A stretch of DNA of 64,000 nt from Piedraia hortae CBS 480.64 (lineage: Eukaryota), in the NCBI GenBank assembly GCA_010093745.1, contig MU005969.1:62001-126000 (forward strand), in the 5' to 3' direction. Position 1 is the first letter of the stretch. Each line of letters starts with the position of its first letter. Below are positions 1 to 3,298 of the stretch, piece after piece. The notes below the pieces were generated by a model. The model made no database searches and was not told the DNA's origin. It saw only the letters and a program-made list of their open reading frames with translations. Made by a program: the position numbers and the translations under genes.

Positions 1-591
1 GCGGCGTCGTTGAAGTTGCAGAAAGAGGCAAAGGGTTACTTAGACTCGCTGCGCGCGATGACGGCGTCGCAGATGCGCATTGCAGAGACGATTGATACCT
101 TTTACGGCGAGGCGGGCGCGCGGGACGGCGTCTCCCGGAGTTATAAACAGGCGGTTGAGGATCTGGATGCCGAGACGATCAAAGCCTTGGATGGGCCGTA
201 TCGGTAGGCGGGATCAAATCGTTGCAAGCTATGGCTAATGATTGTAGGACCACCGTCATTGACCCCATCAGCAGATTTTGCGCATATTTCCCCGACATTA
301 ACGAGTGTATGTGGATTGCGTTGATTAACAGGCAGGTACTGACAATCCAGGCATAAAAAAGCGCAACCACAAACTGCTCGACTACGACGCCATGCGCAGC
401 AAAGTGCGGAGGCTGGTGGACAAGCCCGACAAGGATGCATCCAAGCTGCCTCGCGCAGAAAAAGAATGCGAAATGGTGAGCAAGCCCCAGTCCACCTCCA
501 CCTCGTTTGATCTCCCCCCGTTGAGTCCGGACATGCAACATTCTTCAAGAGTGATGGAGTGGCTTGCGCCGTTGCGTGCACGCCAAGGAGG

Positions 592-634
<43 letters not shown>

Positions 635-1401
635 AATGCAACATCGCGTGCAAGAGCAGCGACAAACCCCGTGACGAGGGACTTTGCCACTGCGCCTGAT
701 AGCAAGAACCATCCAGCTTGGAAGAACCGAGCGGTAAGCATTACCATTCCGGGGGACAAAGAAGCGACGACGCTTCAGCGTGACATCCATCCAGCTTACA
801 GGTCTCCTGCATTCTGCATGTCAGACGAAGGCAACTCTTCAACAGAGCCGTCTTTGCCGCAGACGCCGGTATCGTATACCGGAAACCAAGCCAGGGACTC
901 GGGATCATTGCCCTCACTACCCTCATTCACATCAGGATCGTACACAGCAGAGCCGCACAGCTTCTTCGACTGGTCCAGCGACGAGAACCGCAAAAAGCAC
1001 AAGAAGGAAAAGCGATCAAAAGCTAACAAGATGTCGCAGGCCAAAGCAGGCTATGACCAACTGAACGACCAGCTAAGGAACGAGCTCCCGCAACTAATCG
1101 AACTGCGGTAAGCACATCCCACCCAACCCTGAAATTCACTAACAGAAAACCAGCGTTCCCTACCTCGACCCCACGTTCGAAGCCCTCGTCAAGATCCAAC
1201 TCCGCTTCTGTGCAGAGGCATACGGCCGCATGGCGCAGGTGCAGCAGTGCGTTTTTGACATTTTTCGAACATCACAACTAATTGCATAACAGATACCTAG
1301 ACGCATCAACCCGCGACCAGTACGCAAGCGGCGACCTCGACGCTAGAGTCGAAGACGTCCTCGGCCAGATCCGCGAGCTTAGCATTGCAGGGACAGTCTA
1401 G
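1..1401 (+). CDS. RVS161: Amphiphysin/BAR-domain protein Rvs161 (Hob3), 5'-truncated by the window
   Basis: Spliced reading LQKEAKGYLDSLRAMTASQMRIAETI...PYR/TTVIDPISRFCAYFPDINEC/IKKRNHKLLDYDAMRSKVRRLVDKPDKDASKLPRAEKECEM/AKAGYDQLNDQLRNELPQLIELR/VPYLDPTFEALVKIQLRFCAEAYGRMAQVQQ/YLDASTRDQYASGDLDARVEDVLGQIRELSIAGTV*. GT-AG introns at 204-247, 307-350, 476-1039, 1108-1153, 1247-1292. Confidence 0.95.
593..634 (+). repeat. (GAT)14 microsatellite inside the long RVS161 intron
   Basis: Read directly; encodes poly-Asp in the frame continuous with the flanking exons. Confidence 0.95.
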
Positions 1402-1511: not shown

Positions 1512-1546
<35 letters not shown>

Positions 1547-1555
1547 CCCCCCCCG
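1512..1555. repeat. Poly-C tract (~44 nt, one T interruption)
   Basis: Read directly, between the RVS161 stop and the NOP2 start. Confidence 0.95.
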
Positions 1556-1639: not shown

Positions 1640-3298
1640 ATGGCCCCCAGCCGTCGCATGCAGAAACAGCCCCCACCGGAGCCTCTTAGCACTGTCACAA
1701 AGGGGAAAAAACGCAAAGCAACCGCTCCTGCCGTTGGGAAGGGGGAGGGGAGGAAGAAGTTGAAGTCGAAACCTACATCTGCGCCGAATAGGAAAGACGT
1801 TGACTCAGATCTCGATCTTCCAGACGACGAGTTTGATGTAGAGGATGGGCTGGACGACACGTTTGAGGGGTTTAGCGACTCTGTCGATGGGGGGGATTCC
1901 GATGGAGGGGATGCCAATGACGGGGTGGATTTTGATAATGACGATGAAGAAGTAGACTCCGACGCAGAAGCCTTTGCCACTGCCCCCTCTCCTGAAGCAG
2001 AGCACCCCAGAAAACAAATCTTCTGGTCCGACGACGAAGAGGACGAAGACCTCCTCACGGCCGCAAATCTTGAGGGCCTCTCCGCGCGACGGGATAAACA
2101 GATCGCAGAAGAGGAAAAGGACGCAGAAGCGGAATTACACCAAACTGCAGCGCAAGCCGACCACGCAGCAGAAGAGCTCGGTGATGTGGGCGAGACGGCC
2201 GACCTCGCACTCCTTCGATCGAGGATCACAGAGACGGTGCGCATCTTGAGCAATTTCTCGGAACTGAGAAAAGAGGGGAAAAGTAGAGCCGAGTACGTCT
2301 CCTCTCTGTTGGAGGATATTTGTGGCTACTACGGCTACTCTCCCTTCCTGGCGGAGAAGTTGTTCTCTCTCTTCCCGCCTCAGGAGGCATTAGCCTTCTT
2401 CGACGCGAACGAGACGCCTCGCCCGGTTGTTATACGCACGAATACTCTCAAAACCAACCGACGGGCTCTCGCCCACGCGCTGATTAACCGCGGCGTGACC
2501 CTCGAGCCGGTGGGGAAGTGGACGAAAGTCGGATTACAAATCTTCGAATCGCAGGTCTCCATTGGGGCGACGCCCGAGTATTTGTGTGGGCACTACATGA
2601 TCCAAGGCGCCTCGTCGTTCTTGCCTGTTATTGCCCTCGCGCCGGAGGAGGGCGAGAGAGTGTTAGATATGGCTGCTGCACCGGGGGGTAAGACTACGCA
2701 TATTGCCGCGCTGATGAGGAATACCGGGTGTGTGTTTGCGAATGATGCTAACAGGGAGAGGGCGAAGGGGTTGTTGGGGAATGTGTATCGACTGGGGGCT
2801 AGGAATACGGTCGTGTGTGCGTATTCGGCGTTGGAGTTTCCGAGGGTGATGGGGGGGTTTGATCGTGTGTTGCTTGATGCGCCGTGTTCGGGGACGGGGG
2901 TTATTGCTAAAGATGCGAGTGTGAAGATGAATAGGGGCGAGGAGGATTTTCTGAGGCTGCCGCATTTGCAAAAGAGGTTGCTCCTGGCGGCGGTGGATTC
3001 GGTGGATCATGCGAGTAAAAAGGGGGGGATCGTGGTTTATTCGACTTGTTCGGTGGCGGTGGAGGAGAATGAACAGGTTGTGCAGTATGTGTTGGGGAAG
3101 AGGCCGAATGTGAAACTAGTCCCTACGGGACTGGGGTTTGGGAGGGAGGGCTTCACGAAATTCGAGAGGAAGAGGTTCCATTCTTCGATGAAGGAGACGA
3201 GGAGGTTTTATCCGCATGCACATAATGTGGATGGTTTTTTTGTGGCGAAGTTGAAGAAAATGGGGCCGTTTGTGGAGAAGAAGACTGTAGAGTTATAG
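1640..3298 (+). CDS. NOP2: 25S rRNA m5C methyltransferase Nop2 (NOL1/NOP2/Sun family)
   Basis: 552 aa ORF with acidic N-terminus, RTNTLKT, GATPEYL, VLDMAAAPGGKTT, FDRVLLDAPCSGTG, YSTCS, RFYPH..NVDGFFVAKLKK. Confidence 0.95.
   Translation: MAPSRRMQKQPPPEPLSTVTKGKKRKATAPAVGKGEGRKKLKSKPTSAPNRKDVDSDLDLPDDEFDVEDGLDDTFEGFSDSVDGGDSDGGDANDGVDFDNDDEEVDSDAEAFATAPSPEAEHPRKQIFWSDDEEDEDLLTAANLEGLSARRDKQIAEEEKDAEAELHQTAAQADHAAEELGDVGETADLALLRSRITETVRILSNFSELRKEGKSRAEYVSSLLEDICGYYGYSPFLAEKLFSLFPPQEALAFFDANETPRPVVIRTNTLKTNRRALAHALINRGVTLEPVGKWTKVGLQIFESQVSIGATPEYLCGHYMIQGASSFLPVIALAPEEGERVLDMAAAPGGKTTHIAALMRNTGCVFANDANRERAKGLLGNVYRLGARNTVVCAYSALEFPRVMGGFDRVLLDAPCSGTGVIAKDASVKMNRGEEDFLRLPHLQKRLLLAAVDSVDHASKKGGIVVYSTCSVAVEENEQVVQYVLGKRPNVKLVPTGLGFGREGFTKFERKRFHSSMKETRRFYPHAHNVDGFFVAKLKKMGPFVEKKTVEL

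What the first reader, a model, noticed from the sequence alone, without database searches (positions are those of the whole stretch)
476..1039. 564-nt in-frame, stop-free intron in RVS161: candidate long BAR-protein isoform
Seen: canonical donor (ATG|GTGAGC at 476), branch point GCTAAC (1022-1027) and acceptor CAG| (1039). Removing it restores a contiguous Rvs161 (EKECEM|AKAGYDQLN). Its length is exactly 188 codons, phase 0, with no in-frame stop, whereas the gene's other introns are 44-46 nt. The embedded (GAT)14 reads poly-Asp in this frame and TGA stops in another. The encoded peptide is S/P/T-rich with an acidic run and ends in a basic cluster (RKKHKKEKRSK). Inference: intron retention would insert a 188-aa disordered region near the helix 2/3 tip of the BAR arm, giving Rvs161, normally a BAR-only protein, a switchable extra module.
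Basis: partly seen in the sequence, partly recalled or inferred. Interest (0 to 1): 0.8.

Follow-up and report, generated by a model that had tools for sequence, protein, structure and literature searches.

The report
Translatable long intron in fungal RVS161
The 564-base stretch is a real intron that is cut out of the main RVS161 messenger RNA, and in related black fungi the same site holds a protein-coding, selectively conserved "exon-like intron", although this genome's copy has lost the relatives' conserved peptide motifs.

Summary
Observation confirmed. Window 476-1039 is a GT..AG intron of 564 nt (188 codons, phase 0, no in-frame stop). An RNA contig from a public run joins 475 to 1040, and the gene's other four introns are 44-46 nt.

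The open frame is unlikely to be chance: 22 of 20000 dinucleotide shuffles stay open.

New here: most fungal RVS161/Hob3 genes have no intron at this site (56 of 80 metagenome loci). A Teratosphaeriaceae-type clade has a 567-969 nt insert there. It is 3n and stop-free in 17 of 19 complete loci. It evolves like protein: dN/dS 0.23-0.39, third-position excess, 3-nt indels, and the motifs PSPPKAL and TPFFxPSELExxMxPL. It also keeps GT, CTRAC and CAG signals, and it is spliced out in a relative's cDNA-like contigs.

This is an exitron-like coding intron of the known PTC7 / NUP116 kind.

Caveats for this window:
- Its peptide matches none of the family motifs.
- It has no homologue in the searches.
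- The one RNA run shows intron-body RNA at about 14% depth, but no contig bridges an exon-intron border.

The long isoform is therefore plausible here but unproven. New member of a known kind; interest moderate.

The parts
1..203 (+). RVS161/Hob3 exon (gene starts upstream of the window); BAR domain
   Evidence: Pfam BAR PF03114, E 9.4e-08. Exon end set by the RNA joint 203|248. Identical to own protein P0123.
204..247 (+). Intron 1, 44 nt, GT..AG, not 3n
   Evidence: RNA contig joint, table 5. In relatives this site holds a 55-82 codon open in-frame element.
248..306 (+). Exon
   Evidence: RNA contig joints
307..350 (+). Intron 2, 44 nt, GT..AG
   Evidence: RNA contig joint
351..475 (+). Exon 3, ends ...KLPRAEKECEM (end of BAR helix 2, tip loop, start of helix 3)
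   Evidence: RNA contig record 2 covers 351-474. Pfam BAR.
476..1039 (+). The finding: 564-nt phase-0 intron, 188 codons, stop-free. Positional orthologue of the clade's coding intron.
   Evidence: Joint 'skips 564, GT..AG' at depth 1046.6. Translation has no stop. Shuffle test 22/20000.
476..481 (+). 5' splice site GTGAGC (codons Val-Ser)
   Evidence: In 52 of 53 family inserts the first residue is V, and in 35 of 53 the second is S.
593..634 (+). (GAT)14 microsatellite, poly-Asp in frame 0
   Evidence: regex. TRF places it at 592-638, period 3, 15.7 copies.
734..739 (+). Internal GTAAGC in frame (Val-Ser). A possible alternative donor, 306 nt (3n) from the acceptor. No RNA support.
   Evidence: The RNA contig 646-1020 runs straight through it.
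646..1020 (+). Intron-body RNA seen in run X1 at depth 143.8. It reaches neither splice junction.
   Evidence: tables 2 and 8, record 3
1022..1027 (+). Branch-point motif GCTAAC (codons Ala-Asn), followed by 12 nt that end in the acceptor CAG, the same spacing as in relatives
   Evidence: All 18 long inserts listed end CTRAC + 12 nt that end in CAG. Residues -6,-5 are [AT][DN] in 53 of 53 family inserts and AN in the window.
1037..1039 (+). 3' splice site CAG (codon Gln)
   Evidence: The last residue is Q in 51 of 53 family inserts.
1040..1107 (+). Exon 4, AKAGYDQLNDQLRNELPQLIELR (BAR helix 3)
   Evidence: RNA contig; Pfam BAR
1108..1153 (+). Intron 4, 46 nt
   Evidence: RNA joint
1154..1246 (+). 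Exon 5
   Evidence: RNA contig
1247..1292 (+). Intron 5, 46 nt
   Evidence: RNA joint
1293..1401 (+). Last coding exon, stop TAG 1399-1401. Poly(A) is added near 1431.
   Evidence: Loose poly-A end behind 1431 (table 7).

Best explanation
Window 476-1039 is a spliceosomal intron of the RVS161/Hob3 BAR gene that is removed from the main mRNA.

It is the local copy of a clade-specific 'exon-like intron' (exitron-like, the same kind as the yeast PTC7 and NUP116/NUP100 retained introns). The clade is Teratosphaeriaceae-type Dothideomycetes. These fungi carry a 0.56-0.97 kb insert at a site where most fungi have uninterrupted coding sequence. The insert keeps GT...CTRAC-N12-CAG splice signals, yet it is also kept 3n, stop-free and under protein-level purifying selection.

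Splicing gives the ordinary 261-aa BAR-only protein. Retention would give a long isoform with a mostly disordered Ser/Pro-rich loop at the tip of the BAR arm. In relatives the conserved last ~24 residues of that loop prolong helix 3.

In this genome the frame is still kept open, which I read as continued selection for translatability of unspliced mRNA. The peptide itself has diverged beyond recognition: poly-Asp from a GAT microsatellite, and a polybasic KKHKKEKRSK tail in place of the family's amphipathic helix.

Shown: the intron is spliced here; it is open and 3n; the orthologues in relatives are coding and spliceable.
Inferred: this genome's unspliced mRNA is translated, and what the extra loop does.
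For: (1) Splicing here. One RNA contig of run X1 joins all five introns, including 'skips 564 GT..AG'. The annotated protein P0123 is the spliced form.

(2) The open frame is non-random. 22 of 20000 shuffles stay open in frame 0, while the other five frames carry 2-20 stops. The length is 3n, whereas the four short introns are not.

(3) Protein evidence from the clade. Of 231 retrieved RVS161-like proteins or ORFs, 53 read straight from ..EKExEM through a 92-298 aa insert into AKAAYEQLN. 52 of 53 start with V, 51 of 53 end with Q, and 53 of 53 have [AT][DN] at -6,-5 (these reflect the splice signals). 47 of 53 carry SP[PS][KR] and 53 of 53 carry a PFFxPSEL-like block, which no splice signal explains (alignment).

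(4) DNA sampled through exon-3 patterns only, so not biased towards open frames. Of 80 loci, 56 have no insert. Of the 19 with an insert and both flanks, 17 are 3n with 0 stops, at 567-969 nt. Of 5 cut by the contig end, 4 are open to the end.

(5) Coding-type evolution in relatives. dN/dS is 0.23-0.39 in the insert for the six pairs among L009, L010, L012 and L018, against 0 in the flanking exons. In frame-agnostic nucleotide alignments, substitutions pile up at codon position 3, for example 32/32/75, chi-square p 1.7e-06. The indels in these six pairs are 3 nt.

(6) Spliced in a relative too. The intronless contigs L025 and L040 are 99-100% identical to most exons of genomic L018, L019 and L020 (95% over the short exon-4 piece) and skip the 672-nt insert.

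(7) The window's copy has the same site, the same phase, the same CTAAC+12 nt register, and a Ser/Pro/Thr composition like the family's (S 14 vs 16%, P 9 vs 10%, T 7 vs 7%). There is a weak colinear BLASTP match of its last 60 residues to P0003 (E 0.002).

(8) Codon usage in frame 0 lies between coding and non-coding: +0.028 bits per codon, against 0.156±0.105 for coding windows and -0.133±0.06 for non-coding windows. 3 of 192 non-coding frames reach the insert's value.

(9) Intron-body RNA is at 143.8 against 1046.6 for the spliced contig, i.e. 13.7%. This is nominally above the 10% used for PTC7 and NUP116 in PMC7491326 (passages read).

(10) The AlphaFold2 model of the relative P0014 shows the insert 173-439 mostly below pLDDT 50. 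Residues 415-462 form one helix at pLDDT 84-95 that runs from SELEDIM... into exon 4.
Against: The window's peptide has none of the family motifs:
- A profile of the 53 inserts scores frame 0 at 2.8 bits, no better than the other frames.
- For the C-terminal block, 158 of 1000 shuffles score at least as well; there is no PSPPK match.
- BLASTP against P0002 gives E 4.3.
- No homologue of the insert turned up in two searches of the 5.8-billion-protein database.

The RNA run gives no bridging evidence:
- There is no cover of 475-580.
- The intron contig ends at 1020, 6 nt before the branch A, and does not run into exon 4.
- This looks more like excised intron RNA than retained mRNA.
- It is a single run, held as contigs only, with its RNA status guessed by the tool.

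Other points:
- Codon usage is 1.2 SD below the coding mean, and an antisense frame scores about the same.
- The frame can be lost in this clade. L013 and L014 share a 1-nt deletion and have PSPPK changed to PSTPN. L006 has a stop at codon 47.
- This genome lacks the clade's second open element at intron 1 (44 nt here), which hints at a lineage that is shedding such elements.
- L008 vs L016 shows weak constraint: dN/dS 0.59, and codon positions 53/42/59 (p 0.24).
Confidence: 0.55

Rival explanations
1. Decayed relic. The lineage of this genome has lost the coding use of the insert, as L013/L014 did. The stretch is now a plain, efficiently spliced intron, and its open frame is residual or chance.
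For: - No family motif is left and the insert has no homologue.
- A microsatellite sits inside it.
- The spliced form dominates, and there is no junction-bridging RNA.
- The intron-1 element is absent here.
- Loss of frame is documented in L013/L014 and L006.
Against: Sequence diverged enough to erase all motifs should have gained stops if it were neutral. The expectation is 6.8 stops, and only 22 of 20000 shuffles are open. There is a further factor of 1/3 for the 3n length. Frame 0 alone is free of stops. Codon usage is above 189 of 192 non-coding frames.
Confidence: 0.22
2. Harmless read-through. Selection keeps the long, weakly defined intron 3n and stop-free only so that the occasional unspliced mRNA still yields a working BAR protein, rather than a truncated and possibly dominant-negative half BAR domain. 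On this view the peptide has no function of its own in this genome.
For: - It explains an open frame with a disordered-type composition and no conserved motif in the window.
- The insert sits in a tip loop where the AlphaFold2 model tolerates about 240 disordered residues.
- Weak donors (GTCAGC, GTCAGT, GTAATG) in part of the clade suggest imperfect splicing.
Against: It does not explain the conserved PSPPKAL and TPFFxPSELE blocks, or the dN/dS of 0.23-0.39, in relatives. For the window itself, nothing run here separates it from the best explanation.
Confidence: 0.18
3. The long intron is there for an RNA-level reason: it hosts a snoRNA or another structured RNA, or it is an introner-like element of the kind known in Dothideomycetes.
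For: - The intron body is unusually abundant as RNA in run X1 (143.8), and the contig stops before the branch point.
- Introner-like elements are described in Dothideomycetes (PMC4457414; search listing and start of abstract only).
Against: - Rfam: 8 matches up to E 10, and none reaches its gathering score. The C/D-box hits lie on the GAT repeat.
- The fold is no better than shuffles (z +0.47; 66 of 100 shuffles fold at least as well).
- There is no second copy in the 64-kb window and no nucleotide similarity to the 80 loci beyond 16-26 nt.
- The whole genome was not available, so copy number in the genome is untested.
Confidence: 0.03
4. The stretch is a constitutive coding exon, and the 'intron' is an annotation or assembly artefact.
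For: Gene models of relatives keep the insert as coding: P0006 and P0232 (Meristemomyces frigidus) and P0231 (Oleoguttula mirabilis).
Against: The RNA contig at depth 1046.6 skips exactly 564 nt with GT..AG. cDNA-like contigs of a relative skip its insert as well.
Confidence: 0.02

Closest known systems
PTC7 retained intron of Saccharomyces and relatives (PMC7491326, passages read; the original Juneau et al. 2009 paper was not read)
   Same: A conserved intron whose length is a multiple of three and which lacks stops, so that spliced and unspliced mRNAs give two proteins. [quoted passage not shown] A lineage can lose the long form through a stop in the intron.
   Different: The PTC7 intron is short and encodes a transmembrane helix that changes localisation. 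Here the insert is 0.56-0.97 kb and encodes a disordered loop plus a helix extension in a BAR domain. Retention and translation are shown for PTC7 and are not shown here.
NUP116/NUP100 alternatively spliced coding segment in budding yeasts (PMC7491326)
   Same: A coding segment carrying a conserved binding motif lies inside a spliceable, 3n, stop-free intron, and is interpreted as intronization of coding sequence. The criteria were 3n, no stop, and intron coverage of at least 10% of junction reads.
   Different: A different gene, clade and motif. Whether the RVS161 insert arose by intronization of an inserted coding segment or by exonization of a gained intron is not resolved here.
Exitrons of Arabidopsis and human (Marquez et al. 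2015, PMC4484396; abstract and outline read)
   Same: Internal parts of coding sequence with features of both intron and exon. Splicing of 3n exitrons gives internally deleted proteins, often removing disordered regions and modification sites.
   Different: Exitrons are defined inside annotated coding exons and are typically retained by default. Here the spliced form is the major one in both organisms with RNA evidence. My searches found no fungal exitron study by title (24 papers, 15 listed).
Rvs161/Hob3 BAR proteins (Pfam PF03114)
   Same: The flanking exons are an ordinary, highly conserved Rvs161. It is 87% identical over 261 aa to the Acidomyces richmondensis protein P0127.
   Different: Canonical Rvs161 is BAR-only. 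Of the 80 loci, 56 have uninterrupted coding sequence at this site.
Introner-like elements of Dothideomycetes (PMC4457414, listing only)
   Same: A new, long intron at a site that is intron-free in other fungi, in the same fungal class.
   Different: No repeated copies were seen and there is no strong RNA fold. Protein-level selection is also not a feature I know of for introner-like elements (recalled, not tested).

Membership tests
Rvs161/Hob3 BAR protein | BAR domain (PF03114) over the gathering score | tested here: met
   Exon pieces score 40.3 and 32.4 bits against a cut-off of 28.5. The relative P0014 scores 185 bits.
U2-type spliceosomal intron | GT..AG ends and a branch-point motif near the 3' end | tested here: met
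   GTGAGC at 476, GCTAAC at 1022-1027, CAG ending at 1039
U2-type spliceosomal intron | Removed from RNA | tested here: met
   Joint 'skips 564' in a contig of depth 1046.6 that also removes the four other introns
Coding retained intron / exitron (criteria of PMC7491326 and PMC4484396) | Length a multiple of three and no in-frame stop | tested here: met
   564 nt, 188 sense codons. 22 of 20000 shuffles stay open.
Coding retained intron / exitron | Intron-containing mRNA present (coverage at least 10% of junction reads), continuous with the exons | tested here: inconclusive
   143.8 against 1046.6 is 13.7%, but only over 646-1020. There is no cover of 475-580 and no contig across either junction. 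Only one run, held as contigs.
Coding retained intron / exitron | Protein-level purifying selection on the intron sequence | tested here: inconclusive
   Met in relatives: dN/dS 0.23-0.39, third-position excess, 3-nt indels, conserved motifs. Not testable for the window's own lineage, since no close relative was found. The window lacks the motifs.
Coding retained intron / exitron | Retained transcript exported and translated | not testable with these tools
   Needs polysome or ribosome profiling, or proteomics.
Introner-like element | Many similar copies in the genome | tested here: inconclusive
   No second copy in the 64-kb window. The whole genome is not held.
Introner-like element | Unusually stable predicted RNA structure (feature recalled from memory) | tested here: not met
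   z-score +0.47; 66 of 100 shuffles fold at least as well
snoRNA-host intron | Match to a snoRNA family | tested here: not met
   No match reaches a gathering score. The best is 18.8 bits against 40, on the GAT repeat.

The most novel reading that the evidence does not exclude
RVS161 of Teratosphaeriaceae-type black fungi carries two conserved, spliceable, protein-coding introns. One lies at the GPYR|TTV site (55-82 codons). The other lies at the helix-3 tip site (about 190-320 codons). One gene could therefore make up to four BAR isoforms.

The tip insert lengthens helix 3 by about 24 residues. It also adds a disordered loop with a proline-directed-kinase-type SPPK site and basophilic RSxS sites. 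Regulated intron retention could thus retune the endocytic Rvs161-Rvs167 scaffold (tip contacts, membrane binding or partner recruitment) under stress.

The window's copy would be a lineage-specific variant that swapped the amphipathic helix for a polybasic, lipid- or importin-binding tail.
Probability: 0.35. Interest if true: 0.7.

Novelty: new member of a known kind. Interest (0 to 1): 0.55.

Why it matters
Functional proteins made from retained introns are textbook-rare in fungi, with PTC7 and NUP116/NUP100 as the main examples. In filamentous fungi, intron retention is usually dismissed as noise or as fodder for nonsense-mediated decay.

Here comparative data give a clean, testable case in a core endocytosis gene. 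The insert carries signatures of both intron and exon across many lineages, and it includes natural 'loss' alleles. It gives a handle on three things:
- how coding introns arise (intronization versus exonization);
- how BAR-domain tips tolerate or use large loops;
- gene annotation: current models either keep the insert (P0006, P0231, P0232) or drop it (P0123, P0127), without noting the alternative.

For this particular genome the pay-off is smaller, because its copy lacks the conserved peptide blocks.

Tried and rejected
- Whole-genome search for other copies: no genome is held.
- Cluster look-up for names and accessions: the shared database was switched off. I took names instead.
- RNA runs: no RNA holder is listed on record. 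One run (X1) is guessed to be RNA. It behaved as RNA when laid, with poly(A) ends and spliced joints. There is no cover of 475-580 and none in the masked repeat 581-645. This hole proves nothing.
- Rfam on 400-1120: only sub-threshold hits.
- RNA fold of the intron: no excess structure.
- Profile of the 53 family inserts against all six frames of the window's intron: nothing significant, so no frame-shifted homology either.
- Block profiles of the C-terminal helix and of PSPPK: no match. One search was my own script error, and I repeated the run.
- BLASTP of the insert against P0002: E 4.3.
- Search for longer proteins holding the window's insert: none among 934 candidates.
- blastn of the intron against the window and against the 80 loci: only 16-26 nt chance-level hits.
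- Pfam on the insert: only DUF2486, at 16.3 bits against a cut-off of 22; rejected as compositional.
- Earlier notes of this scan: none on this genome or topic.
- Literature:
  - 'exitron' + 'fungi': 24 papers, 15 listed.
  - 'Rvs161' + 'intron retention': 1 paper, on the Candida albicans spliceosome, listing only.
  - 'Hob3' + 'alternative splicing': 5 papers, 4 listed.
  - None describes this element by title or by the start of its abstract. I opened no supplements.
- I found no cDNA-like contig that keeps the insert while lacking the other introns among the 80 loci.
Full report
WHAT IS THERE

The window starts inside an RVS161/Hob3-type BAR gene on the + strand. The sequence and one RNA contig of a public run (record 2, k-mer depth 1046.6) give this structure:
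- Exons: ..-203, 248-306, 351-475, 1040-1107, 1154-1246 and 1293-1401 (stop TAG at 1399-1401, poly(A) near 1431).
- Introns: 44, 44, 564, 46 and 46 nt, all GT..AG.

The 564-nt intron (476-1039) has these features:
- It starts GTGAGC.
- It has GCTAAC at 1022-1027.
- It ends CAG.
- It is phase 0.
- It translates to 188 residues without a stop.
- It contains (GAT)14 at 593-634.

The record's own annotated protein, P0123 (261 aa), is the spliced form and reads EKECEMAKAGYDQLN.

IS THE OPEN FRAME MORE THAN CHANCE?

In frame 0 there are no stops. The other five frames have 5, 20, 9, 2 and 3 stops. Dinucleotide shuffles average 6.8 stops in frame 0, and only 22 of 20000 have none. The 3n length adds a further factor of about 1/3. 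The four short introns are not 3n.

Codon usage, trained on 21 long ORFs of the window with stops ignored, gives these values per codon:
- Insert frame 0: +0.028 bits.
- Coding windows: 0.156±0.105.
- Non-coding windows: -0.133±0.06. Three of 192 non-coding frames reach the insert's value.
- One antisense frame of the insert: 0.024.

The intrinsic signal is therefore intermediate.

THE DECISIVE CONTEXT: RELATIVES

A full phmmer scan with exon 3 + intron + exon 4, together with two word-indexed searches, returned 231 proteins or ORFs. I classified them by two exon anchors:
- 178 contain both anchors. Of these, 123 have the ordinary uninterrupted junction.
- 53 read from ..EKExEM through an insert of 92-298 residues into AKAAYEQLN.
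- Two have short unrelated inserts.
- 41 have only the first anchor, and 12 have none.

The 53 inserts share blocks that no splice signal explains (alignment):
- MVS(L/M)xDFL.
- D-L-x-(V/I/M)-P-S-P-P-K-A-L. The SP[PS][KR] core is present in 47 of 53.
- RSPS..RVS.
- T-P-F-F-x-P-S-E-L-E-x-x-M-x-P-L, present in a PFFxPSEL-like form in 53 of 53.

They also share features that mirror splice signals. V is first in 52 of 53 (GTN). Q is last in 51 of 53 (CAG). [AT][DN] sits at -6,-5 in 53 of 53 (CTRAC).

The named members that keep the insert in their gene model are Meristemomyces frigidus (P0006, P0232) and Oleoguttula mirabilis (P0231). Both are Teratosphaeriaceae. The window's spliced protein is closest to the protein of Acidomyces richmondensis, which belongs to the same family (87% identity).

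Predicted-protein libraries favour open frames, so I also fetched DNA through exon-3 peptide patterns only (80 metagenome loci). The results:
- 56 loci have no intron at all at this site, so the insert is a derived feature of one clade.
- 19 loci have a long insert with both flanks. Of these, 17 are 3n with no stop (567-969 nt).
- Two loci (L013 and L014, from different assemblies) share a single 1-nt deletion relative to the 94%-identical L007. They also have PSPPK changed to PSTPN.
- Of 5 loci cut by the contig end, 4 are open to the end (38-246 codons). One (L006) has a stop at codon 47, close to the contig end.
- Counting apparent duplicates once, 14 of 15 distinct complete inserts are open.
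- All 18 inserts listed start with GT (GTGAGC, GTGGGT, GTCAGC, GTCAGT or GTAATG) and end CTRAC followed by 12 nt that end in CAG. This is the same register as the window's GCTAAC...CAG.

EVOLUTION AS PROTEIN

For the six pairs among L009, L010, L012 and L018:
- Nei-Gojobori dN/dS in the insert is 0.23-0.39 (dS 0.35-0.67), against 0 in the flanking exons.
- In nucleotide alignments made without reference to frame, substitutions fall on codon positions 1/2/3 as 16/22/46, 28/31/66, 33/39/76, 32/37/67, 36/45/67 and 32/32/75. The chi-square p values run from 0.006 to 1.7e-06.
- The only indels are 3 nt.

L008 versus L016 is weaker: dN/dS 0.59, positions 53/42/59 (p 0.24), and the gaps sum to 3n. 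More distant pairs are saturated at synonymous sites.

In the relatives, therefore, the insert is translated often enough to be under purifying selection typical of a disordered region with short linear motifs.

THE INSERT IS ALSO AN INTRON IN RELATIVES

Contigs L025 and L040 contain the whole 261-codon reading frame without any intron. They are 99-100% identical to most exons of genomic loci L018, L019 and L020 (95% over the short exon-4 piece), and they skip the 672-nt insert, whose donor is GTCAGC.

I found no cDNA-like contig that keeps the insert among the 80 loci.

THE WINDOW'S OWN COPY IS THE ODD ONE OUT

It has none of the family's peptide blocks:
- A profile of the 53 inserts scores 2.8 bits in frame 0 and 6.2 in frame +1. 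All six frames are insignificant.
- The C-terminal block profile matches only the last nine residues, which hold the branch point and the acceptor. 158 of 1000 shuffles do as well.
- The PSPPK block finds nothing.

The only hint of homology is a colinear BLASTP match of the last 60 residues to P0003 (E 0.002 for that one comparison). P0002 gives E 4.3.

No database protein resembles the insert. No nucleotide similarity to the relatives' inserts remains.

The composition is family-like (S, P, T) apart from the poly-Asp run. Where relatives have the amphipathic helix SELExxMxPLxxxF..., the window has SSDENRKKHKKEKRSKANKMSQ.

RNA IN THIS ORGANISM

Only one run was offered. Its RNA status was a guess, but poly(A) ends and five spliced joints show that it is RNA.

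The spliced contig has depth 1046.6. A separate contig (depth 143.8, i.e. 13.7%) covers 646-1020 of the intron. Nothing covers 475-580, and 581-645 is masked as a repeat.

The intron contig ends at 1020, 6 nt before the branch A at 1026, instead of running into exon 4. By my arithmetic on table 2, the bins that include short-intron bases are explained by the spliced contig alone.

The intron RNA is therefore not genomic DNA contamination. Equally, it is not shown to be part of a retained-intron mRNA, and an excised-intron species would fit at least as well. Contigs cannot settle this.

STRUCTURE

I ran AlphaFold2 on the relative P0014 (528 aa) with a 70-sequence alignment. The BAR helices come out at pLDDT above 90. 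The insert (173-439) is mostly below 50.

Two parts of the insert are exceptions:
- A moderately confident helix at 213-236, just after SPPK.
- Residues 415-462, a single helix at pLDDT 84-95 that begins at SELEDIM and continues into exon 4.

In the long form, helix 3 would thus be about 24 residues longer at the tip of the arm, and the short TEKETEM turn (166-174) is displaced.

Three further points are inference from motif shape only: SPPK as a proline-directed-kinase site, RSxS as basophilic-kinase sites, and the window's KKHKKEKRSK as a lipid- or importin-binding patch.

OTHER RNA-LEVEL EXPLANATIONS

- Rfam gives only sub-threshold C/D-box hits on the GAT repeat.
- The intron folds no better than shuffles (z +0.47).
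- There is no second copy in the window.
- An introner-like origin cannot be excluded without the genome.

COMPARISON WITH WHAT IS KNOWN

The closest known kind is the coding retained intron of budding yeasts. For PTC7 and NUP116/NUP100, the introns are 3n and stop-free, earlier-diverging species lack the intron, and lineages lose the long form by gaining a stop. NUP116/NUP100 is read as intronization of a coding segment that holds a binding motif (PMC7491326, passages read).

Plant and human exitrons are the same idea seen from the exon side (PMC4484396, abstract read).

My searches found no description of such an element in RVS161/Hob3 or in a fungal BAR gene (listings only).

VERDICT

The site holds a clade-wide intron that is also protein-coding, which is new as a case but not as a kind. 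For this genome, translation of a long isoform is inferred only from the improbably open 3n frame, against a background of lost motifs and no bridging RNA.

I put 0.55 on 'still a translatable alternative intron'. I put 0.22 on 'relic', 0.18 on 'kept open only to be harmless', and 0.05 on the rest.

Noticed in passing
L001-L004, L006, L010-L013, L015-L018, L021, L026, L027 (site homologous to window 204-247): A second open, in-frame element sits at the intron-1 site (GPYR|...|TTVLEP) in 16 of 16 insert-bearing relatives examined. It is 55-82 codons long and carries conserved blocks ([CS]V..DL..A.D, IE.E.N, G.LMD.IY). In the L018 type it is 168 nt and is spliced out in the cDNA-like contigs L025 and L040. 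In the window this intron is only 44 nt and is not 3n.
   Followed up: partly
L013 and L014 versus L007: Two contigs from different assemblies share a single 1-nt deletion (not in a homopolymer) that frameshifts the insert, giving 3 stops downstream. PSPPK is also changed to PSTPN. This looks like a natural loss of the long isoform in one lineage.
   Followed up: partly
L040 versus L025: The two intronless cDNA-like contigs of the same organism are 99.2% identical. They differ by one codon at the end of exon 3 (EKEQ-M against EKEQEM), which could be an allele or an alternative junction.
   Followed up: no
window 646-1020: An RNA contig of the intron body (depth 143.8) starts inside the GAT repeat and ends 6 nt before the branch-point A. 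The 5' 105 nt of the intron have no cover. This could be a stable excised-intron fragment.
   Followed up: no
window 734-739: There is an internal consensus donor GTAAGC in frame 0 (again Val-Ser), 306 nt (3n) upstream of the acceptor. It could give an intermediate isoform with an 86-residue insert. There is no RNA support.
   Followed up: no
window 1512-1554: A run of 43 C (95% matches) lies between the RVS161 poly(A) site and the next gene.
   Followed up: no
window 1640-3295 (+): The neighbouring gene encodes a NOP2/RsmB-type RNA methyltransferase (PF01189, E 4.6e-70) with an acidic, low-complexity N-terminal region.
   Followed up: partly
L008-L012, L015, L016, L018-L021, L026, L027: Part of the clade uses weak-looking donors (GTCAGC, GTCAGT; L023 has GTAATG) at the coding intron, yet the GTCAGC intron of the L018 type is spliced. 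The ranking of these donors as 'weak' is from memory and was not tested.
   Followed up: no
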